Positions 45,564 to 62,325 of a stretch of DNA of 64,000 nt are shown here, piece after piece. The position numbers and the translations under genes are program-made. The stretch is from positions 912,957 through 976,956 of the forward strand of contig NW_018408916.1 in the NCBI RefSeq assembly GCF_002113885.1, written 5' to 3'. The notes under the pieces are model-generated. The model saw only the letters and a program-made list of their open reading frames with translations. It searched no databases and was not told the origin of the DNA. Position 1 is the stretch's first letter. Every line of letters starts with the position of its first letter. This stretch comes from Mizuhopecten yessoensis. Lineage: Eukaryota.

Positions 45564-47136
45564 GCAGAAAACACGAATTGCCGATTGAATTAGATCTTTT
45601 GTGTTTTGAAACTGGAAGTGTACACGTGAAAGTTAGTCTGCAACACTTGTGACCTAGGGCTAGGCTTCTCCCACACGCCTGAACCTGGCCAACATTTAGC
45701 ACGATGACAAGCCAAAGAAACGGGAAAGAAGTGACTGAACTAATCGTCTATTACTTCAGATAGCACATTATAACATCCATATATTTTAAATCACTACATA
45801 CTACATGTCACAAATTTTAACGCAGACACCGTGTCTGTCATCTTCCTTAGGAAATGTAAACAATCTACCGGATGCGTGCGCACCAGAAATCGGAGAAATC
45901 CCTGGCGCCTCGATATTTAAGTCGATTTGATTAATTACTGATATCTAAAGTGTCGAATATTGTTTGAATAATTAACGAGATAGTCTTCTAGTTGCAGAAG
46001 GTATATAAGTTGTATATGTTTCGGGAATAAAAGAAGTAATATTTTACATTCTTGTGTAGCAAGTGATATTTCCGCGCGAAACAGAAATAGAATACAGAAT
46101 TATGACGTCAATCGGAATTCCTGTTTTTCTCCCTTTTCATTGGCTAGAAGTCACGTCCTGTTTCCCCACTGGAGGACTACTTCCGGACGAAAAAAACTCA
46201 AGGACAAGGTGTAGAAAGGGGAAACAACTCTGTTTAGGCACGCATGTCTTACCATTAAAGAGTTTTTTGTTACAAATGGCGGATTGGGTCAAGAATTCCA
46301 AATATTTAAACTTGTTTGATTTTAAGAATCAATGGCACTCAAGGTCAACAAGTAATTAAGGATAAGGTTATAAACAGGTCAAACTGTATAATTGTCACTG
46401 CCACTATTGTGAAATATATATGAAGTCCTTTTCATTAGAAGAATTATTCTATAAAAAATCACACGTTGCGATGAATTTTCAGAATTCAAGTTGTTTGAAA
46501 GTATTTTAAAAAATATGTAGAAATGTAAACGGATAGTGACTCACTTCACATTTAGCAGTTTGAAGATATGGAATGATCAACACGAGGACACCAGTGATAT
46601 ATATTTCGGTAATATCTCGTTTGTTTGCCTGTCGACAAATGTCTCCCGCTCTGTAAGGTAACTTGATTCATTAAGGTGCTTTCTTCTAAAAAATATCGGT
46701 TTATACATCGGGAAATCATTTTGGTAATGTTTAAAAGGTGGTTCCTATCTATATATTTGTTCACACTTCTTCGTTATGAGGCCAAGCCATTCAATATAAC
46801 TACTTTAAATACTATTGCCTGATTGTGTCCACTCCACAACTGCACTTTTGCTTTTGTCGTATATAACCTCAGACTTCAAAAAGGAAATATGATATGATCA
46901 GTTTCCTAAAATCCTTTTTAAAGGTCCTGATATGATCCGACTTTTATATGTTGGTAATAATACACAACACATATATACATTTAATTATCATGCGTTGATT
47001 GTCAAATAAATTATGAGTATTTAAATAATAATAAAATGCTGGACATGTGTCAGATTTCCAATGAGAATTCCAAACAAATTGTTTGAGATAGGACCCCGAG
47101 CGCTGGCGCTTAGTGTCTCAATTTTGTGTTCACAGT

Positions 47137-48303
47137 TGTTGTGAAACTGGGATTTGTTGACATTCGTTATAATAATAGTAATTCTTTATATAGCTTGCTA
47201 AAATCGTATTTATCATTACTAGTGTATCTCTATGTCAATGTGATATCAACAATACCTTTATAATCGTTAAGAGAGTCAGTTTTTTTGTTTTCAAAATGTC
47301 GGACGTCAAACTTTCCCGCAATCTATTGACAGTTTATGTCGTTGTATACGTGACGTAACTTCCGGGTTATTTCGTCAGCTATTAATAGTATCATACGTTA
47401 AAGATAACGGACTCTTTGTAATTCGTACTGAATTTGTCCATAAGAAAGAAATACATATGTAATTGTAAAATTATACTTCAAGAATGTTCTGTTGTTTTGC
47501 GTTACCATTGTGGCACGCGCTATTCGATATAAAAGCGGATTGCGGTCTGTTTTGAAGGAGTCGAGCTGGTAGAGATCCTGAGTGTACCAAGCGAGGTAAC
47601 TCTTGTGAAAGGTAGGGCATTTTTATAGGAACTTAAATTATACTCTATCTAGTTTAATGGAGTATTTATATATTTCCAATTCATATTTATAACCTTCGGT
47701 GAACCGTGAAGTCGGGCTCGGAGGAAAATAAGTTACAAATACTAATTTAAGGGGTATTTGAATACATTTCGATAACTTGTGTGAGCCACGTAATGCGGAG
47801 TCACAAGAAAGTAATTGTGTTTAAGGTTTAGATAACTCTATATGTTATAACCTGTGTTGAACCGTGAAGTCGGTCTCACGGGAAACTAAAGAAACTTGTA
47901 AGGCATAGATAAATCTATCAATCATAACCTGTGGTGAGTCGTGAATTCGAACTCACAGGAAAACAATGTACATGTAAGGCTTATTTTAACTAACCGTTAA
48001 GCTCCCCGAGCGTATATTTCTTGATTGATAAGTAATTCCTAGTGTTTATGATAGCTATATTGTTCAAGTAGGATTTTTCATGATAGCATAGTACGACTCG
48101 ACTCATATGCTTTGGTGACGGGATTATGTAAATGTATTTTGTATACGAATATGTAAATTGTATGTAATGGAATTCTGTATACTGATATGTATATGGTAGT
48201 AACTGAATAAACACCATCCTCGTACTTGATATCAACGTATCGAACTCTTAATTTCTGGTACCGAATAACGGCTTTCCATACAAGAAGGCACAATTTTATT
48301 ACA
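47137..48303 (+). repeat. 5' LTR (1167 bp)
   Basis: Near-identical to 55302-56467; TATAAAA at 47528-47534, AATAAA at 48206-48211. Confidence 0.97.
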
Positions 48304-48304
48304 C

Positions 48305-48316
48305 TGGTGGCAGCGG
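48305..48316 (+). other. Primer binding site, complementary to tRNA-Leu 3' end
   Basis: TGGTGGCAGCGG is the reverse complement of CCGCTGCCA-CCA; lies 1 nt after the LTR. Confidence 0.85.
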
Positions 48317-48493
48317 AAACTTTTCTTTTTTCCTGAATATTTGGCCTGTACATTTTGGATTTTTCAAAAGATAGTGACAGGAGAACAATTGAACTCGGGA
48401 GTAATTTGAATATTTGGTAACGTCTATATTTTTATTGTTTTGGTGAAATTTTTGAGGTACCAGAGTTTTAATAGTAATAGATTTTAGTAAAGG

Positions 48494-50302
48494 ATGGATT
48501 TAAGGAGTAGAAAATTGACTTCGCCGAATTTTGTAAGGGGGGAAATTGTGGGCAGTGAACATATCGATTCTCAAAATAGCCGTGTTGGGTCGCCAATGCC
48601 AAGCGTCATGGGAGTGAACATTCCACAATGTCAATTGGATAAATCACTGGATAGGAGCAGACCAACACCAAGTTTTGGAGAAGACAACAGTTATAGTCCA
48701 CAGGATGTCGATAAAGCAAATCAGGATTCTATGACCTTAGGCGATAACCTTGGAAACCAAGCAGGTCAACCTTCTTACAGACATACAGAGAACGATGTCT
48801 GTGATAGTGCAACCTTACCTCCTATGAGATATGGAGTCCAACAAGATTTATGTAGCAGTACAGTTCCAGTCCACACAACTCAGGGAGCTTCTACAAATCT
48901 GTTTCAAAACCCCCAAAGCACAACTATATCTCAGGAGTTCCGTAATGGAAACCGGGATAGTTCTTCCAATATGTATGACAATCGGGCGTCCCACGATTTA
49001 TATAGAGGAAACCAATGCGATGTCACTGTTGGACCATCTCATGAGTTCCGTAATGGAAACAGAGACATGTTCCGTAATGGAAATAATTCACAGTGTCCCT
49101 CCGCAAACTACTCAGAGTTCCGTAATGGAAACTGGGGAGATGTCGCTGTTGCGGAATCCCATGAATTCCGTAATGGAAACAGGGATAAGTTCCGTGATGG
49201 AAATACCTCACAGTGCCAACAAAACGATTTCTCAGAGTTCCGTAATGGAAACAATGGAAATCATCGCAGACAGCAGAACTATGGAGCGGAAGTGGAGTTC
49301 CGGCGCAGAAACAACGACCAAATTTCTACGGAACCCTACCACAACGCAAGATCTGGTTACAATCAGAATTGTATGCCGTATTCGGGATCACTTTCTTACT
49401 CATCAAGTCGGACGGGTAGAGAACCTGAGACTAGATTACCTACATTCAACGGACGTGGAGACTGGCAAGCGTTCATAACAACTTTCAACATGATTGCTGG
49501 TAGATTTTGCTGGAACGAGGCGAGACGGTGTGAGGAGATATTGTTTTGTCTGAGAGAGGACACCTTATCCTTTGCGACTAGACTGCCAATTCAGAGCAGA
49601 CTGGACTACTATCAGTTATGTACAGACATGCAACGGCGGTTTGGGGATATCTCATTACCAGAGACATACAGACGGAAGTTGACAAACGTTAAGAAATCAA
49701 GTGAAGAATCCATGCAAACCTTTTCTTCTAGAGTGGAACAAATGGTTCGAAAGGCCTATCCGGGCATCAACCACATACTCTACAATAACCTATGTGTGGA
49801 GCATATGTTAAATGGTATCCAAGACCAGAGTATAGCATACGATGTCCTGACTAAAAGACCACAGACAGTGGAAGAAGCTATTAATCTCCTAACATGGCAT
49901 TATACTTGCAAGAACAGTGTGAAGCAAGTTAAGAACAACGTGCGAGAGGTCACGGTAATAGAGAAAGACCATGATGATCCGGAAGTACGGCGAACCAGTC
50001 AAGGACGTTACGTGACTGAAGAACGGTTACAACAGTTTGGCAGGGATATGGTGAAAGACCTTAAGGAGAGCATTTCGAAGGAAATCAAGGAAGCAATAAG
50101 TAACCTAGACAGGTCAAAATCAAATGGCTACAAGAAGGGTAATTTTGCCCGGAATCACCAAGATGTGGAATGCTACCAATGCCATAAGAAAGGTCACTAT
50201 CGAAGTGAATGTCCAGAGCTAAATGAAGGCAACAAAGGACACAGAGCGAACAATACGACGCAGACAGAACTTAAAAATGGAGTGACAAAGAATTTAAACT
50301 AG
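48494..50302 (+). CDS. gag: Gypsy Gag with N-terminal EFRNGN repeats and CCHC knuckle
   Basis: 602-aa ORF; capsid-like LPTFNG..W..F; CYQCHKKGHYRSEC. Confidence 0.92.
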   Translation: MDLRSRKLTSPNFVRGEIVGSEHIDSQNSRVGSPMPSVMGVNIPQCQLDKSLDRSRPTPSFGEDNSYSPQDVDKANQDSMTLGDNLGNQAGQPSYRHTENDVCDSATLPPMRYGVQQDLCSSTVPVHTTQGASTNLFQNPQSTTISQEFRNGNRDSSSNMYDNRASHDLYRGNQCDVTVGPSHEFRNGNRDMFRNGNNSQCPSANYSEFRNGNWGDVAVAESHEFRNGNRDKFRDGNTSQCQQNDFSEFRNGNNGNHRRQQNYGAEVEFRRRNNDQISTEPYHNARSGYNQNCMPYSGSLSYSSSRTGREPETRLPTFNGRGDWQAFITTFNMIAGRFCWNEARRCEEILFCLREDTLSFATRLPIQSRLDYYQLCTDMQRRFGDISLPETYRRKLTNVKKSSEESMQTFSSRVEQMVRKAYPGINHILYNNLCVEHMLNGIQDQSIAYDVLTKRPQTVEEAINLLTWHYTCKNSVKQVKNNVREVTVIEKDHDDPEVRRTSQGRYVTEERLQQFGRDMVKDLKESISKEIKEAISNLDRSKSNGYKKGNFARNHQDVECYQCHKKGHYRSECPELNEGNKGHRANNTTQTELKNGVTKNLN

Positions 50303-50335
50303 TTAGGACTGTGCCTGTCGGCCAAGACACAGTCC
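50293..50335 (+). promoter_or_regulatory. -1 programmed ribosomal frameshift signal
   Basis: T TTA AAC in the gag frame just before the stop, 6-nt spacer, stem GGACTGTG/CACAGTCC; pol is in the -1 frame. Confidence 0.88.
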
Positions 50336-53300
50336 GTATAGATATAACAGAAAAGACAGATAGATGCGAGGTCCATGTAGTTAAGGAGACTGACACATCA
50401 GTGGAATTAGAGTCTGATAACGGAGCGTATTTGAGGGAGCTGTTTGATGAGACTTCATGTGATACTGCTGGTCGGTGCCAGGCAGTAGAGATCGATGTTT
50501 GTCCAGCCAAAATGGAGCGATCGGAGGACGAGGACAATATGACAAAACCATTGAGGGAAGTAGTCATAGATAGGGTCCGGGCAGTCACGATTACGGCGTC
50601 CATGATGGTGGAAGGAAAAATTATCAGGGCGGTAGTGGACACAGGTGCTGAAGTCACTGTGATGAGCGAGAAGAAGTTTATGCAGTTTCCGGAAGATATG
50701 ACACCGTTGGTGAGAGATGCCGATGTAGGTTTAGCTGTAGCCGAGGCCGGCAAGAAACTAACGACATACGGCTTAGCTGATGTACAGATGACTTTGGGCG
50801 ACAAAGTATTTCCTTGGAGTATTTATATTGCTCCTATCAAAGACGACTTGTTGTTGGGTTGTGACGTCATCGATGCATTTGACATTACAGTTAACACCAA
50901 ACGTGGATTGGAGATTGATGGGAAATGGATGGAGTGTGAAGTGAGAAGGGCTCAGGACCAGATCGCAAGATTAGTAGTACAGGAGACAGTTCTTATACCT
51001 GCTATGTCTGAAGTCATAGTGGCGGGAGAGGCGCAAAATGCCGAAGTATTGGATACACGGTATTCTGCTGTGGAGCCTACAGTTGAAGACGAAAGAACTT
51101 TCATAGTTGCACGGACGTTGGTTGATCCATACAAGCACACAGTGCCGATCAGGATTGTAAACACCAGTAAAACGCCAGTCAAGTTAAGGAAAAGACACAT
51201 GATAGCCGCGTTACACCCTGTGGAGAGTTTTGAAGAAATATTTAAAGAAAATGGAGATACATGGGACAGATTTATCATGATGGAACAAGCTAAACAAAGA
51301 ACTAAAAATCTTCGTCAGGTGGAAGTTATTTTGGAGGACACAGCTACTCAGGCACCAATCATTCCAAAAGAGTGGAATACGGACACAGAGGGAAAGGCCG
51401 ATTCTCCAGTTGTACCGGAATTTCTCAGGGAATTGTTTGACAGAAGCTGTGAAAACGTCACAGATAAAAAACACAGAGATAGATTGGCAGACATTCTTAT
51501 CAGAAATCAGGACAGCTTTGCTAAAAACAAGTTGGAGCTAGGATCCTGCTCAGTTATTGAACACAAAATAGAGACAGGTACAGCTGCACCTGTTCGTCAA
51601 CCTTTGAGGAGGACACCTCGTGGTTTCGAGGTGGAGGAAGAAATATATCTAAAGGATCAAATAGACAACGGGACTATTCATGAATCCAAGTCAAGTTGGG
51701 CTTCAAATATTGTCTTAATCCGGAAAAAAGATGGCACGGTTTGCTGGTGCTGTGATTATCGCCGTTTGAATGATTGTACTATCAATGATGCATATCCACT
51801 ACCTCGCATCGATACTTGCTTGGATTGCCTATCGTCAGCATCTATATTTTCAACTATGGATCTTCAAAGCGGATACTGGCAACTAAAACTAGCTGAGGAG
51901 GATCGAGCGAAGACAGCATTTATCACAAAATATGGATTGTATGAGTACATAAAGATGCCTTTTGGTCTTTGCAACGCTCCTAGCACATTTCAAAGATGTA
52001 TGGAACTCATTTTCCGAGGAATGCAGTGGAAAACCATATTAATCTACTTGGATGACGTCATTCTATTCAGCTCAGATATGGAGGAACATTTGGAGAAACT
52101 GGAAGAAATTCTGAAACGCTTCAAGTCTGCAGGTTTAAATTTGAAACCATCAAAGTGCGAGTTTGTGAAAAAGGAAGTCCTATATCTCGGACACATCGTC
52201 GGAGCAGAGGGGATAAATGCTAACTCTAAGATAGTAGAAGCTGTAAGAAACTGGAAGCAGCCTACTACAGTCAAAGAAGTCCAACAGTTCATCGGGCTCT
52301 GCAATTATTACAGGCGCTTTATTGAGCACTTTAGTGAACTATCTGCACCTTTAACAGAGTTGACCAAAAAGGATGTAAAATTCATTTGGACTGAAGAATG
52401 CGAGAACACATTTCACCTTTTGAAAGAAAAAATGTGTCATTCACCAATTTTGGCTATACCAAACAACGAGGACCCAATAATCTTGGACAGATGCCTCAAA
52501 TATTGGAGTTGGAGCAGTGCTTTCACAAGTACAAAACGGAAGAGAGCGTCCAGTAGCTTACGCGTCTAAAAAGCTAGACCGTCATCAACAAAGATACAGT
52601 GTGACCCGGAGGGAGCTTTTGGCTGTCGTGACATTTATCACACAGTTTAAGCACTATCTCCTGGGAAGGCGATTCCTGTTGCGGACAGATCATGGATCAC
52701 TACGCTGGCTGTTTGGATTCAAAGATCCACAGGGACAAGTCGCCAGATGGTTGGAATGTCTTGGGGAATTCGATTTTGAAATACAGCATCGTGCAGGAAA
52801 ACGTCATCAGAACGCGGATGCCCTATCACGTTGTGATGTTGATGATTTGTGCACACATCAAAAGGAGGGAACCGTGGATAAGCAATGTATTACTTGTATC
52901 CAGCTGAAGCAGAATTGGAAGCAGTTCAAGGAAGACGTTGACAATGTGCAACCATTAGGAGGTCAAAACATTGAGAAAGATGTTCGAGCCGTTAAGACAA
53001 ACGTGGTCAAGGCAAAAGAAAGTAACTGGATGGACGGATATTCTTATAAGGAACTGTCAGTTTTCCAGGAAGAAGACGACGATTTGAAACATCTACATGA
53101 GTGGGTTAAGGTCGATAAGATACCCACAAGAGACAATGTGGCTAAACATAGCCCTGCTGTAAGGAAGTTATGGCTAAATTGGAATAACATTGTATGCCAA
53201 CATGGACTGTTGTATCAGCGTTGGAGAACGGCATCACCTGAAACAGAGAAACTGCAACTGTTAGTACCAAAAATACTTAAACCAGAGATTATGAAGCGTT

Positions 53301-54346
53301 GTCACAACTCTACGTATGCTGCTCATCCGGGTGTTCAACGTACAATGGAGAAACTACGGGAAATTTTTTATTGGTACAAGATGATCAATGATGTCAAGAC
53401 CCATGTGCATTTATGCGAAAACTGTAATCGATGGAAATCGACAGTACCAACATCCAAAGCTACGCCCAGTGACCACAGAGTGGGATATCCTTTGGATAGA
53501 GTTGGCATCGACGTGATCGGACCACTCCCTCGGACAAAGAATCAGAATCAATATATCCTAGTAATTGGAGATCATTTCACAAGATGGATGGAAGCGTATC
53601 CTCTTCCTAACCAATCAGCTGAAAAAGTCGCGGAGAAGTTGGTAAAAGAATTCATAGCCAGATTCGAGATTCCTTTAGAAATTCATTCGGACCAAGGTAC
53701 CAATTTTGAAAGTCAGATCTTTCAGGAAGTGTGCAAACTCCTTCAAATTACAAAGACCAGGACCACCCCCTATCATCCTGAATCAAACGGATTGATCGAA
53801 CGGTTTAATAAAACGTTGGGAACTATGATCAAGTGCTTCCTGAAAGAGAATCCTAAGGAATGGGACCGTCACTTGGAAATACTTATGGCAGCATATAGAA
53901 GTACAAAGCATTCTGCAACTGGATTCAGCCCCAACGTTATGATGTTTGGACGTGAAGTGAATACACCAATAAACATTTTGTTTCCGACAGAGGGATCAAC
54001 GGAATTCACATCTACCGAATACGTGGGAAGATTACGCGAGACCTTGGAGACCATGTACAACACGGCTAGAAATAAATTAGGGGAAAAAGCGAGTTACACA
54101 AAAAGAAACAGTGATACCCGTATTCATGATAAACCATACAATATAGGGGAATTTGTGTATAAATTAAAGCCGAAACATAGAAAACTGGAGTCACCATGGT
54201 CAGGACCGTACATCGTCACCAAAGTATTGAGTGATGTCGTTTACGAGATCACCCATAGTAAACATAAAGAGATTGTACATTTTAATAAATTAAAGACCTG
54301 TACAATGTTAGAAAGTCCAAAATGGGCCAAAACCTATATGCTATGA
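50293..54346 (+). pseudogene. pol: Gypsy Pol (protease, RT, RNase H, integrase) with one frameshift at ~52489
   Basis: VDTGAE; MPFGL, YLDD; RNaseH D[T]DAS broken by an apparent 2-bp deletion; integrase H..H..CxxC, D..D..E and WSGPY. Confidence 0.92.
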
Positions 54347-54369
54347 TCTTTTGTTTTTACAGGTTAACG

Positions 54370-55086
54370 ATGAGCTTTCAATGTAGTATTTGTGAAGGCA
54401 AATATAAAGGAAAGAAGAGTGCCATAGTACATTTCTTGTCACAGCACAAACCTATTGAGAGTGCCCCATTTAGTTGTACCCTTTGTGGGTATAGATCCCT
54501 AACCTCTGCTTCTTTGAAAGCTCACACCAAAGGATATCGACCACATTGGGAAAAAAGACAGATAACCAGTTTAAATGATCTGGATTGCTTTCAAAGAAGC
54601 CTAAGACCGTATTCAGTGACTTTTGGAGTCGGAAATGAAGATATGTGTTATATAAAGGAAGATCTGGAAGTGAGGAAGGAAGAAAGATTGACAGAGATTA
54701 AGGAAAATATGGAAGCGAAGAATGAAGAAAGAGCGACAGAGATCAAGGAAGATATGGAAGTGAGGAAGGAAGAAAGAGCGACAGAGACCAAGGAAGACCT
54801 GGATGGACTGTTACATGATGTCCTGGAATTGTGTGAGGACGAGACAGAGAGGTTCAAGAAGGAAAAGGAAGCGGAAGCGGAAGTGGACAGGATCCGGAAA
54901 GAGATAGTTTAGTGCGAAAAGAAAAGAGCGACAGAGAGTGCGAAGTTTGGAAAGTATGTAGAGAGATTAGAGAAGAAGTTAGATGAGTGTAGAGGGCGTA
55001 AGAGAGATTATGGAAGTTCATACGGTTTTGAGGAGATGTGGGAGGAATATGGGAATGAAAGTAAGAGACTTAAGAGTGTGGTGTGA
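54370..55086 (+). CDS. Extra ORF3 of the Gypsy element: two C2H2-type fingers plus charged coiled coil; in-frame TAG at 54910
   Basis: Acceptor ttttgtttttacAG at 54362; CSIC..H..H and CTLC..H..H; EERxTEIKEDMEVRK-like repeat x3; frame stays open ~57 codons beyond the TAG. Confidence 0.7.
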
Positions 55087-55288
55087 GTGGTAAAGAAATA
55101 AACATGTTGTCATATCTATTGTTAAAATTAAAGAGCTGGAAATGTAATTTAAATAATATTTGGCTGGATGTACATATCTTTGTAAAGAAAGATTTGATTT
55201 TGAATTCTACTGTGTAGATTCTTGAAATATTTCTCAAAGTGTTCTGTTTTAAAATTGTTCTTTCTACATTTTGGGGACAAAATGGTCT

Positions 55289-55301
55289 AAAAGGGGAAAA
55301 G
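55289..55301 (+). other. Polypurine tract
   Basis: AAAAGGGGAAAAG abutting the 3' LTR. Confidence 0.9.
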
Positions 55302-56467
55302 TGTTGTGAAACTGGGATTTGTTGACATTCGTTATAATAATAGTAATTCTTTATATAGCTTACTAAAATCGTATTTATCATTACTAGTGTATCTCTATGT
55401 CAATGTGATATCAACAATACCTTTATAATCGTTAAGAGAGTCAGTTTTTATGTTTTCAAAAAGTCGGACGTCAAACTTTCCCGCAATCTATTGACAGTTT
55501 ATGTCGTTGTATACGTGACGTAACTTCCGGGTTATTTCGTCAGCTATTAATAGTATCATACGTTAAAGATAACGGAGTCTTTGTAATTCGTACTGAATTT
55601 GTCCATAAGAAAGAAATACATATGTAATTGTAAAATTATACTTCAAGAATGTTCTGTTGTTTTGCGTTACCATTGTGGCACGCGCTATTCGATATAAAAG
55701 CGGATTGCGGTCTGTTTTGAAGGAGTCGAGCTGGTAGAGATCCTGAGTGTACCAAGCGAGGTAACTCTTGTGAAAGGTAGGGCATTTTTATAGGAACTTA
55801 AATTATACTCTATCTAGTTTAATGGAGTATTTATATATTTCCAATTCATATTTATAACCTTCGGTGAACCGTGAAGTCGGGCTCGGAGGAAAATAAGTTA
55901 CAAATACTAATTTAAGGGGTATTTGAATACATTTCGATAACTTGTGTGAGCCACGTAATGCGGAGTCACAAGAAAGTAATTGTGTTTAAGGTTTAGATAA
56001 CTCTATATGTTATAACCTGTGTTGAACCGTGAAGTCGGTCTCACGGGAAACTAAAGAAACTTGTAAGGCATAGATAAATCTATCAATCATAACCTGTGGT
56101 GAGTCGTGAATTCGAACTCACAGGAAAACAATGGACATGTAAGGCTTATTTTAACTAACCGTTAAGCTCCCCGAGCGTATATTTCTTGATTGATAAGTAA
56201 TTCCTAGTGTTTATGATAGCTATATTGTTCAAGTAGGATTTTTCATGATAGCATAGTACGACTCGACTCATATGCTTTGGTGACGGGATTATGTAAATGT
56301 ATTTTGTATACGAAGATGTAAATTGTATGTAATGGAATTCTGTATACTGATATGTATATGGTAGTAACTGAATAAACACCATCCTCGTACTTGATATCAA
56401 CTATCGAACTCTTAATTTCTGGTACCGAATAACGGCTTTCCATACAAGAAGGCACAATTTTATTACA
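55302..56467 (+). repeat. 3' LTR (1166 bp)
   Basis: About 6 substitutions and 1 indel versus the 5' LTR, counted by eye. Confidence 0.97.
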
Positions 56468-57299
56468 ACAGTCATATACAATACAAAGACATTACTCTAC
56501 ATGTAGCAATGCCCTTCATTGCTTTTATGTTGCAATCCTCGATTTTGACACGACATACAATATATTTTTGTAGAAAGTGCACATGCTATTAGTGCACTGA
56601 CATTGTCTTTTCGCGCCTCCTTCTGGGTATTCTGAATATATCAGTCTTCACGCATATCAACGTTCCCGTGCTTCTTTCCTTGATTTTTTTCTCTTGTGCC
56701 TGTCACTTGCTCTCGTCTGCATCAGTAGAACATGAGGTTTTCCCTCTTTAACAACTCGCTTCCTTTCAGACATTGTTCTATGCAACAACGCTACCATGGA
56801 TGAAACTTGACCAATTGTTCTGTCTTCGGTATACTGGCCGTTATCAACGTCTGGTTAGTCACGTAGTATACTGACTATGTATTGTTTATGTTTGGATCTT
56901 ATAGGTCCACATAAATGAACAAAGATTCCACTGTGTCATAACAGAAACTTTTTGTCTGGCCTATACTTACTTATCACGACGGATACAAGAAACTTCATTG
57001 AATAGATGTACATGCAGTTTCTTGAAATTTTGTTCTTCTTGTATATGATATATTAAGCGGTTTTCATTACGTCTGCTGGAACAAAATGTATTGTAAACAG
57101 TGTCTTACCGCATGAGTAAGCACACCACTGTGTACACTTTTGTCTGTGTGTACAAATGAGATAAATAGCATAACGTACGATGTATTTAAGTATAATGTCA
57201 CGACTACACGGGTACCTAGTGACATTGCCCGTACTAAGACAAAATAACGTTTAAATAGCAATACAGGATTTAAAAAGATCCATCTCAAACCCTTACAGA

Positions 57300-58138
57300 T
57301 GATGTTGACACAGAAAGATCATATAGCATTGACACAAAAAGATCATATAGCGTTGACACAGAAAGATCATATAGCGTTGACACAGAAAGATCATATAGCG
57401 TTGACACAGAAAGATCATATAGCGTTGACACAGAAAGATCATATAGCGTTGACACAGAAAGATCATATAGCGTTGACACAGAAAGATCATATAGCGTTGA
57501 CACAGAAAGATCATATAGCGTTGACACAGAAAGATCATATAGCGTTGACACAGAAAGATCATATAGCGTTGACACAGAAAGATCATATAGCGTTGACACA
57601 GAAAGATCATATAGCGTTGACACAAAAGGATCATATAGCGTTGACACAGAAAGATCATATAGCGTTGACACAGAAAGATCATATAGCGTTGACACAGAAA
57701 GATCTTGTAGCGTTGACACAGAAAGATCATATAGCGTTGACACAGAAAGATCATATAGCGTTGACACAGAAAGATCATATAGCGTTGACACAGAAAGATC
57801 ATATAGCGTTGACACAGAAAGATCATATAGCGTTGACACAGAAAGATCATATAGCGTTGACACAGAAAGATCATATAGCGTTGACACAGAAAGATCATAT
57901 AGCGTTGACACAGAAAGATCATATAGCGTTGACACAGAAAGATCATATAGCGTTGACACAGAAAGATCATATAGCGTTGACACAAAAGGATCATATAGCG
58001 TTGACACAGAAAGATCATATAGCGTTGACACAGAAAGATCATATAGCGTTGACACAGAAAGATCTTGTAGCGTTGACACAAAAAGATCATATAGCGTTGA
58101 CACAAAAAGATCATATAGCGTTGACACAAAAGGATCAT
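57300..58138 (+). repeat. 24-bp minisatellite GTTGACACAGAAAGATCATATAGC, ~35 copies
   Basis: Near-perfect tandem array; variant monomers recur at 360-bp spacing. Confidence 0.97.
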
Positions 58139-58569
58139 TAATTAATATTTTATTTCAATAGCTATTTTCACCTGCAACAAAGGGTTTACCAACCTTTACA
58201 CTACACATAATACCTAGTGTTATAATTGACCTTTAATAATCACATACCATGCAATATGATTGGCATAATTATCAATAAACAAATCATTGTAATGTCTTTG
58301 ATTGATTATCATTATGAACACACTAGTCTATTAACCCTCGAAAAATCCCTCCTTAATCCATTATGGCGGATTACAAAGATATAGAAGGTAAACAGTGGTC
58401 TATAGATACTGCGTCCTATACTACTTCTATAAATTTACCAAATAATTTGCCATTATTGATATAGGAGGAGTTATGTCGTAATAATATCTGTCGATACCAG
58501 CGGTATGTGTATGTATTGTAGGCCGCAGCTATAATTAAAATAGCAATGTTTGTAAAATTATAAACTTAT

Positions 58570-60757: not shown

Positions 60758-61088
60758 AAAAGATAATCCTCAAGTGCGTACAGTCCGGACATCATGCATG
60801 TCCATACAGTTAGAACATCATACATGTACCTACAGTCCGGACATCATACATGTACATACAGTTAGGACATCATACATGTACAAAAAGTCTGAACATCATA
60901 CATGTACACACAGTTACGACATCATACATGTACATACAGTTCGAACATCATACATGTACATACAGTTAGGCCATCATACATGTACAGACAATCCGAACAT
61001 TATACAGGTACATACAGTTAGGACATCCTACATGTACATACAGTCCTAAGATCATACATGTCCATACAGCCCGAACATCATACATATT

Positions 61089-61400
61089 GAATGACAAAAA
61101 CTGATAATTATTGTCCAACAAGTCCTTAACTGTCTTCACCCCATTCCGTTCATATTCCATATATTGTTTGTAACTAGGAACTGGTATGTAATTCAAAAGA
61201 TCATCACCAAGAAAACTTGATACTTCATTATTGTCATCTTTATATTCCATCCATGCTAAAATAACATCTTTCCAGAAAACATTAGTTACATTTTTCGATA
61301 TTTCCTCCAGTTTTGATTTTTTCAGATTCCATAATCTCTCCCCTCCAAATTTACTAAAATTAGATTTTGCTAAACTTTGCCAGTCCCCATTTCCATCATA
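61089..61400 (-). mobile_element. Tx1/L1-type ORF2 fragment (duplicated at 62737-62960)
   Basis: GDWQSL..FGGERLW..NVFWKDVILAW..GVKTVKDLLD. Confidence 0.7.
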
Positions 61401-61987
61401 TATCCGGATAACTTACGGTTTGTTTATTACAAGTGGCTTGTTTCGTTTAAGAAAATTTATTAAAAAAAAAAGAAAAAAAAAAAAAAAAAAAAAATAATGC
61501 CCAGACTTTTTGTACATATATGATGTCCTAACTGTTTGTACATGTATGACGTCCTAACTGTATGTACCTGTATAATGTTCGGACTGTATGTACAAGTATG
61601 GTGTCCTAACTGTATGCACATGTATGATGTTCGGATTGTATGTACATTTATGATGTCCTAACTGTATTTACATGTATGATGTCCTCACTGTATGTACATG
61701 TTTGATATTCGGACTGTATGTTTCTGTATGATGTTCGGACTTTATGTACATGTATAATGTTCTGATTGTATGTACATGTATCAGGTCGTACCTGTGTGTA
61801 CATGTATGATTGGACAATAATTATCAGTTTTTGTCATTCAATATGTATGATGTTCGGACTTTATGTACATGTATAATGTTCGGATTGTCTGTACATGTAT
61901 GATGCTCAGACTTTTTGTACATGTATGATGGCCTAACTGTATGTACATGGATGATGTCGTAACTGTGTGTACTTGTATGATGTCCAG

Positions 61988-62325
61988 ACAAAATTAGTAT
62001 ATGATATAATGCATGAATTAGAAGAAAAAAATATGTCTGGTTTGTTGCTACTTGTTGATTTTGAAAAAGCCTTTGACTCGATAGAATGGAGTTTTATTCA
62101 TAGGTCTTTAAAATCTTTCAATTTTGGTGAATCTTTGCTTAAATGGATACATATTTTCTATCATAATGCAAAAAGCAGAATAATTAATAATGGGTATTTT
62201 TCATCATTTTTGGACGTAAAACGTGGATGTAGACAAGGGGATCCCATCTCCCCATATCTATTCCTGATAGGTGTTGAAATGTTGGCTATACAATGGAAAA
62301 AAAATAAAAGTATCAAAGGTGTACA
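61988..62325 (+). mobile_element. Tx1/L1-type reverse transcriptase fragment
   Basis: LLLVDFEKAFDSIEW..RGCRQGDPISPYLF. Confidence 0.9.

What the first reader, a model, noticed from the sequence alone, without database searches (positions are those of the whole stretch)
54346..55086. Gypsy element with a spliced, env-position accessory ORF encoding C2H2 zinc fingers
Seen: right after the pol stop there is a strong acceptor (tcttttgtttttacAG|G, 54362) and an ATG at 54370. The ORF encodes two C2H2-like fingers, a repeated acidic/basic coiled coil and, past one TAG, a basic tail (RGRKR..SKRLKSVV). It has no signal peptide or TM segment, so it is not Env. The 5' LTR has a candidate donor GAG|GTAACT (47596) ~60 nt after the TATA box. 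Inference: a subgenomic mRNA makes a nucleic-acid-binding regulator or anti-silencing factor, as complex retroviruses do.
Basis: partly seen in the sequence, partly recalled or inferred. Interest (0 to 1): 0.8.

Follow-up and report, generated by a model that had tools for sequence, protein, structure and literature searches.

The report
Spliced zinc-finger gene in Gypsy retrotransposons
A Gypsy retrotransposon carries, where retroviruses keep their envelope gene, a conserved zinc-finger gene that is joined by splicing to the element's own promoter region and likely makes a nuclear regulator of the element's expression, as complex retroviruses do; this copy's gene is cut short by a premature stop.

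Summary
Observation confirmed, with one correction. A young Gypsy element (LTRs 99.4% alike) has a third ORF 24 nt after pol. Contigs of two runs from two studies (RNA by guess) join the LTR to the acceptor at GT..AG, but from donor 47612, not 47596, and cover ORF3 but not gag or pol. The TAG at 54910 is a nonsense lesion (no stop in 3 of 3 sister copies covering it). ORF3 is under purifying selection (dN/dS 0.11-0.33). It belongs to a family without its own Pfam model (49 divergent homologues; named ones from two bivalves and a snail): double zinc finger, disordered acidic linker, coiled coil, basic tail. 14 of 17 family loci in this genome follow an integrase. Related Gypsy lineages carry other finger-led ORF3s, some fused to BTB or TatD domains. 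It is not Env and not a one-off capture. Best reading: a nuclear trans-regulator of its own element (Tat/Rev/CERV logic); function untested. Ten literature searches found no description; spliced non-Env ORF3s as such are known. The scan had no look-alike; it noted other zinc ORF3s in other genomes.

The parts
47137..48303 (+). 5' LTR (TG...CA), 99.4% identical to the 3' LTR; ACAGT target-site duplication at 47132-47136 and 56468-56472
47527..47534 (+). TATA box candidate; no ATG between it and the donor, so ATG 54370 is the first ATG of the spliced RNA
47609..47617 (+). splice donor seen in the joint, exon ends 47611, intron starts 47612
   Evidence: joint 47609 to 54361, GT..AG with cut +2, runs X1 and X2
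47693..47959 (+). three related hairpins (47693-47724, 47851-47882, 47928-47959) in the transcribed part of the LTR, downstream of the donor; candidate RNA element
48305..48316 (+). primer binding site TGGTGGCAGCGG (tRNA-Leu type; assignment recalled)
48494..50302 (+). gag with CCHC knuckle
50275..54346 (+). pol (protease, RT, RNase H, integrase), broken by a frame change inside RNase H near 52480-52570
54346..54363 (+). polypyrimidine tract and splice acceptor, 54362|54363
54370..54654 (+). ORF3 N-terminal ~95-aa double zinc-finger domain
54652..54912 (+). ORF3 acidic repeat and linker, with an amphipathic acidic stretch at 54799-54831, ending at the premature TAG 54910-54912
54913..55087 (+). 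conserved ORF3 tail (helix, FEEMW motif, basic end), untranslated in this copy
55290..55301 (+). polypurine tract
55302..56467 (+). 3' LTR, AATAAA at 56371

Best explanation
The ORF is a conserved third gene of a Gypsy lineage, joined by a GT..AG splice from the LTR (47612) to the acceptor before its ATG, and its protein likely acts as a nuclear trans-regulator that binds the element's own LTR-derived sequence and raises output of full-length gag-pol RNA. Shown: the gene, the joint, purifying selection, linkage to integrase, the family layout. Inferred: the basic double finger would bind the element's nucleic acid (the repeated LTR hairpins are the leading candidate, LTR DNA the alternative), the coiled coil would oligomerise it, the basic tail would take it to the nucleus, and the acidic helix would recruit host expression machinery. 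The spliced RNA would be made first and its product would license the unspliced RNA. In this copy the stop at 54910 removes the conserved tail, so its product is probably crippled.
For: Joint at GT..AG in contigs of two runs from two studies, with depth over ORF3 and none over gag or pol. dN/dS 0.14-0.33 against 5 sister loci and 0.11-0.28 in 4 pairs of a second family. 14 of 17 family loci follow an integrase on the same strand, against 0 of 7 ordinary multi-finger hits. 49 single-domain homologues among the best 150 hits; 37 of 49 carry C-x2-C-x12-H-x3-Y-x2-H against 0 of 101 multi-finger hits. Domain net charge positive in 35 of 36; C-terminal heptads in 27 of 36 against 1.1 shuffled; acidic amphipathic motif in 15 of 36 against 1.6. 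Confident compact fold, pLDDT 92.7; finger 2 superposes on U1/matrin/JAZ-type RNA-binding fingers at rmsd 1.4-2.9 over 33-42 residues. Three LTR hairpins with 3 of 9 pairs changed on both sides. Precedent: CERV, made from a spliced Cer1 mRNA, is needed for export of unspliced RNA (PMC10309623, abstract and passages).
Against: No binding or activity test. Fold matches are weak (best Z 5.7; RNA-type fingers Z 2.6-3.9, tandem DNA-binding fingers Z up to 4.6; no Foldseek hit at E<=0.001), so RNA against DNA is open. Export-signal patterns are not enriched. The second family's LTR shows no repeated hairpins, and one element without ORF3 (L107) has them. The motifs were picked after seeing the sequences, and the window's own protein misses the acidic-motif rule and the heptad cut-off. 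The joint has only 26 letters on its short side, under the tool's 30-31 guide, likeness was set to 90, the runs are RNA by guess, and two raw RNA runs showed no ORF3 reads.
Confidence: 0.5

Rival explanations
1. Anti-silencing or host-antagonist adaptor: the finger pair targets a host protein, chromatin mark or small-RNA pathway part, and the C-terminal modules neutralise it.
For: Related lineages fuse a finger pair to a KCTD-type BTB domain (E 1e-15 to 1e-16) or place it before a TatD nuclease (E 3e-44); these types follow integrase clades. Short linear motifs recur in the linker (F.PDYE 6 of 33, P[VLI][QC]DE 8 of 33). ORF3 diverges faster at silent sites than integrase in the same copies, as exchange or conflict would give.
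Against: dN/dS is well below 1 with no sign of positive selection in pairwise counts. No host target identified. The window's type has no enzyme or BTB module.
Confidence: 0.22
2. Replication accessory: the protein joins the particle or pre-integration complex and steers RNA packaging, nuclear entry or target-site choice.
For: Basic fingers, coiled coil and basic tail also fit a tether; a TQT-like motif (LC8-type, recalled) occurs in 7 of 33 homologues against 1.8 shuffled. LTR hairpins could be packaging signals.
Against: Separate spliced RNA seen without gag-pol RNA. Several related intact elements lack any ORF3. The window's protein has no TQT motif.
Confidence: 0.13
3. The gene now serves the host (or is a one-off host capture): the transcript is kept for a host role or is neutral cargo.
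For: Only the ORF3 exon of the internal region is seen in the two runs, and these contigs carry this copy's stop. L025 is an LTR-PBS-ORF3 derivative without gag-pol and with an open frame. Some homologues are annotated as host genes.
Against: Linkage to integrases only 29-44% identical to the window's, purifying selection among transposed copies, young LTRs and a truncated frame.
Confidence: 0.08
4. A degenerate or unusual Env.
For: Position after pol and expression by splicing match env.
Against: No hydrophobic segment (0.51 in the window's protein; at most 1.62 in 29 homologues), N-terminus is a zinc finger, no Env family match.
Confidence: 0.02

Closest known systems
CERV of C. elegans Cer1 (PMC10309623; abstract, outline and passages seen)
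   Same: Extra protein of an LTR retrotransposon made from a spliced mRNA; nuclear; candidate zinc site, leucine zipper and NLS; needed for unspliced RNA output.
   Different: CERV shares its N-terminal zipper with Gag, has a Cys-rich loop and G-protein-like domain; here a free-standing C2H2-type pair, a non-coding first exon, and no enriched export signal. Homology was not tested directly; no such match appeared.
Non-Env ORF3s of bdelloid Gypsy-like elements (PMC5408684; passages seen)
   Same: Diverse family-specific ORF3s in the env position, described as typically spliced; include nuclease and coiled-coil types.
   Different: Those are GDSL, DEDDy, TM or CC types; 'zinc' and 'C2H2' occur 0 times in the main text, and the authors report no clear departure from neutrality, whereas dN/dS here is 0.11-0.33.
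Regulatory genes of complex retroviruses: Tat, Rev, Tax, Rex, foamy-virus Tas (recalled)
   Same: Small nuclear regulators from spliced RNAs, donor within the LTR R region, structured RNA elements in the LTR.
   Different: Host element is a Gypsy without env; no sequence or fold match found; function here untested.
Env of insect errantiviruses (listing and recall)
   Same: Third ORF, LTR-leader to post-pol splice.
   Different: No signal peptide, TM or fusion protein.
Classical tandem C2H2 proteins (CTCF, Kaiso, ZBTB) and U1/matrin/JAZ fingers
   Same: Beta-beta-alpha fingers with Cys2His2 ligands.
   Different: Second finger has H-x3-Y-x2-H and a ~35-residue extension that folds back; the pair fits tandem DNA-binding pairs only at rmsd 4-6.6.

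Membership tests
Ty3/Gypsy LTR retrotransposon | gag, then PR-RT-RH-IN order between two LTRs | tested here: met
Ty3/Gypsy LTR retrotransposon | TG...CA ends, PBS, PPT, 4-6 bp TSD | tested here: met
   5-bp ACAGT TSD
Ty3/Gypsy LTR retrotransposon | named clade (MolGy, Mag, CsRN1 and so on) | not testable with these tools
   no reference RT set on hand; tree has only this genome's rows
Troyka | CG...CG ends and 3-bp TSD (PMC12440569 passages) | tested here: not met
Env / errantivirus ORF3 | signal peptide and TM anchor | tested here: not met
Env / errantivirus ORF3 | spliced RNA from the LTR leader to a post-pol acceptor | tested here: met
   with the caveats on short side and guessed RNA
CERV/Rev-like export factor | encoded by a spliced mRNA of the element | tested here: met
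CERV/Rev-like export factor | conserved leucine-rich export signal | tested here: inconclusive
   a match in the window's protein, but no enrichment in 36 members
CERV/Rev-like export factor | required for export of unspliced RNA | not testable with these tools
   needs an experiment
Tat/Tax/Tas-like transactivator | activation-type acidic segment and nuclear signal | tested here: inconclusive
   acidic amphipathic motif 15 of 36, basic tails common, motif chosen after the fact
Tat/Tax/Tas-like transactivator | activates the cognate LTR | not testable with these tools
   needs a reporter assay
Classical C2H2 (PF00096) | C-x2-C-x12-H-x3-5-H above the curated cut-off | tested here: not met
   16.4 bits against 25.2; finger 2 is H-x6-H
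U1/matrin/JAZ-type finger | extended helix fold of finger 2 | tested here: inconclusive
   rmsd 1.4-2.9 but Z 2.6-3.9; Pfam jaz and met matches in 3 and 2 of 53 members at E<=0.01

The most novel reading that the evidence does not exclude
A broad lineage of mollusc Gypsy elements has a complex-retrovirus-style regulatory layer without Env: a spliced, env-position gene built from a zinc-finger targeting module plus exchangeable effectors (coiled coil and acidic activator, Cullin3-type BTB, TatD nuclease), each recognising its own element's LTR RNA or DNA or a host silencing factor.
Probability: 0.35. Interest if true: 0.85.

Novelty: new variant of a known kind. Interest (0 to 1): 0.66.

Why it matters
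Dedicated regulatory genes are a hallmark of complex retroviruses and have few tested cases among Gypsy elements. Here a conserved, selected, spliced regulator candidate occurs across many Gypsy families of one genome and in distant molluscs, with natural variation in its effector module and natural losses. That makes testable how LTR elements control their unspliced RNA or evade silencing, and it warns that some 'C2H2 domain' genes in mollusc annotations may be transposon cargo.

Tried and rejected
Single-sequence homologue search found nothing; only the profile search did. No RNA holder on record was listed. Raw RNA runs X19 and X24 (about 19 and 24 in 100 read) gave no ORF3 reads. Viral contigs: no relative. 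Metagenome scans: none, then one locus, L060, whose contig starts 72 nt before the match, so no context; linkage to pol outside this genome is therefore not shown, only hinted by equal contig lengths of a Pol and an ORF3 relative (14149: P0179 and P0153; 8999: P0200 and P0166). Fold searches of the 180-aa model were dominated by the long helix; no Foldseek hit at E<=0.001 in PDB or viral models. Atlas gave unnamed or generic C2H2 clusters. Homodimer prediction for a family member gave no verdict. The whole transcribed LTR folds no better than shuffles, z 0.20. Programmed read-through of the TAG rejected: sisters have no stop there. A spliced DNA retrocopy as source of the joint: none among the genome hits, the close copies keep the acceptor; counts are lower bounds. 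The ZF-coiled-coil type did not resolve as one integrase clade (long branches; L033 dropped). L047 and L048 could not be aligned at DNA level for ORF3 dN/dS. Literature searches showed no description by title or abstract start; PMC6238403 has 0 hits for 'zinc' or 'orf' in its main text (supplements not read); PMC2774666, PMC12440569 and PMC13087858 passages gave nothing on it. Repbase, GyDB, Dfam and subscription papers could not be searched.

Full report
Element. The finding lies in a complete Gypsy-order element: 5' LTR 47137-48303, 3' LTR 55302-56467, 99.4% alike (6 mismatches, 1 gap), ACAGT duplicated on both sides, PBS at 48305, PPT before 55302. gag has a CCHC knuckle; pol runs PR-RT-RH-IN and is broken by a frame change in RNase H. 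The host is probably a mollusc; this is an inference from named homologues only.

The ORF. ATG 54370 lies 7 nt after the acceptor and 24 nt after the pol stop. It reads 180 codons to TAG 54910 and, with X at the stop, 238 residues to TGA 55087. There is no hydrophobic segment. The stop is a lesion: 3 of 3 sister loci that cover the codon (L002, L003, L008; L004 and L005 do not reach it) have no stop there, and the tail is conserved in distant homologues (43% over 76 columns to P0054, E 2e-10).

Splicing. Four runs were laid on 47100-55300. X1 and X2, contigs from two studies and RNA only by the tool's guess, each hold a record that joins 47609 to 54361; the cut two places on gives GT..AG, that is 47611 to 54363. 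Both have depth over ORF3 (16.3 and 11.2) and zero from 48470 to 54223. The X2 record runs on into the LTR. No ATG lies between the TATA box and the donor. Caveats: 26 letters on the short side (with 4 ambiguous letters this equals the overlap expected at a branch of a 31-mer graph; my inference), likeness 90, no DNA control run, and raw RNA runs X19 and X24 had no ORF3 reads. The contigs differ from the window at 54399 only, whereas L002 differs at 16 places, so they come from this copy or one very near it and carry the stop.

Selection. Pairwise counts against natural copies give dN/dS 0.14, 0.29, 0.33, 0.16 and 0.32 (L002, L003, L004, L005, L008); integrase in three of these gives 0.72, 0.60, 0.54. 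A second family (L026) gives 0.18, 0.28, 0.11, 0.22. Pairs share a reference and the L002 counts are small (5 silent, 3 replacement).

Not a one-off. Of 24 loci from two protein searches, 17 score 23 bits or more on the family profile (built partly from four of them); 14 have an integrase upstream on the same strand, two contigs end too soon, and L025 is an LTR-PBS-ORF3 derivative lacking gag-pol. The 7 weaker hits have no integrase. The linked integrases are as little as 29-44% identical to the window's. L026 sits in a young element with 99.9% alike LTRs and an open 260-codon ORF3.

Protein family. A profile of 9 genomic rows found, among the best 150 of 3247 hits, 49 with a single N-terminal match; 43 have the two-finger pattern, 37 the H-x3-Y-x2-H signature, which none of the 101 multi-finger hits has. 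Of 30 clusters looked up, three carry a species: Potamilus streckersoni, Dreissena polymorpha, Gigantopelta aegis. No member of 53 scanned matched a dedicated Pfam family. The 95-residue domain folds confidently (pLDDT 92.7, pTM 0.77): two fingers plus an extension. Basic residues are conserved at positions 15, 17, 24 and 42. Finger 2 alone superposes on RNA-associated fingers (pre-60S factor, TUT1, spliceosomal chains, JAZ) at rmsd 1.4-2.9, the pair on DNA-binding tandems at rmsd 4-6.6; all Z are low. Over 36 near-full-length members the layout is basic domain, Pro/Ser/Thr- or acid-rich linker, heptad repeat (27 of 36), basic end; export-signal patterns are not enriched.

Wider clade. Of 40 ten-kb loci picked around related integrases (not 40 independent families), 22 have a finger-led ORF after pol by a fixed pattern (one further match, L121, judged spurious). 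Types include fusion to a BTB/POZ domain, a TatD nuclease, and two unnamed modules (part was cut). 13 of 19 family representatives have a pyrimidine-rich YAG within 8 nt of an ATG (14 of 29 in-frame ATGs against 8-11% of background ATGs; threshold set after viewing). BTB, TatD and the two unnamed types each fall in a supported integrase clade, with some losses. Homology of these other finger pairs to the window's is only weakly supported (4 loci at 12-15 bits).

LTR hairpins. Three repeats downstream of the donor each fold into a stem-loop (z -1.7, -2.8, -2.2), with 3 of 9 pairs changed on both sides (13 of 500 shuffles; three rows, structure chosen from them). Repeated hairpins also occur in L095, L096 and L107 but not in the L026 family, so their link to ORF3 is open.

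Mechanism. Shown: gene, splice joint, selection, linkage, layout. Inferred: nuclear oligomer binding the element's own LTR sequence and raising full-length RNA (0.5, about evenly RNA- or DNA-level); host antagonist (0.22); particle or integration accessory (0.13); host role or cargo (0.08); Env (0.02); the rest unassigned.

Known systems. Spliced non-Env ORF3s are known: CERV (PMC10309623, abstract and passages) and bdelloid ORF3s (PMC5408684, passages). Ten searches of the held library showed no account of a C2H2-led, BTB- or TatD-bearing ORF3 in mollusc Gypsy elements; the mollusc survey PMC6238403 does not use 'zinc' or 'orf' in its main text. Repeat databases and unread supplements may hold a note. 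Verdict: real, a new variant of a known kind, interest 0.66.

Noticed in passing
L094, L097, L099, L116: Gypsy elements whose post-pol ORF joins a finger pair to a KCTD-type BTB/POZ domain (Pfam BTB_2 for L097 and L099); L097 has an acceptor before the fingers but no ATG, so its start may lie in an upstream exon.
   Followed up: partly
L102, L111, L119, L125, L127, L128: Gypsy elements with a TatD nuclease-like ORF after pol (Pfam E 3e-44 for L119), mostly behind a finger-like pair.
   Followed up: partly
L093, L104, L106; L095, L096, L098, L103, L120: Two further finger-led ORF3 types with conserved unnamed C-terminal motifs.
   Followed up: partly
L025 / L038:1583-4349: LTR-PBS-ORF3 derivative that lost gag-pol but keeps an open 244-codon ORF3.
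   Followed up: partly
window 54370-55087 vs L003, L004, L005: ORF3 differs from sister copies at silent sites about three times more than integrase does (0.17-0.52 against 0.06-0.15), hinting at exchange between subfamilies.
   Followed up: no
window 47693-47959 and L095, L096, L107 LTRs: Repeated hairpins with compensatory changes in LTRs.
   Followed up: partly
homologue linkers (P0019, P0054, P0075 and others; L119, L125): Recurring short motifs F.PDYE, P[VLI][QC]DE, TQT-like and a terminal KSVV-like motif; F.PDYE is shared with TatD-type ORF3s.
   Followed up: partly
window 48928-49259: Five copies of a 32-nt repeat (EFRNGN) in the N-terminal half of gag.
   Followed up: no
window 57300-58150; 60770-61990: A 24-nt tandem array, and two 26-nt arrays in opposite orientation that may be the ends of a DNA element.
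   Followed up: no
L102, L113 pol ends: Pol ends in a Cys/His cluster that looks like a PHD finger (by eye).
   Followed up: no
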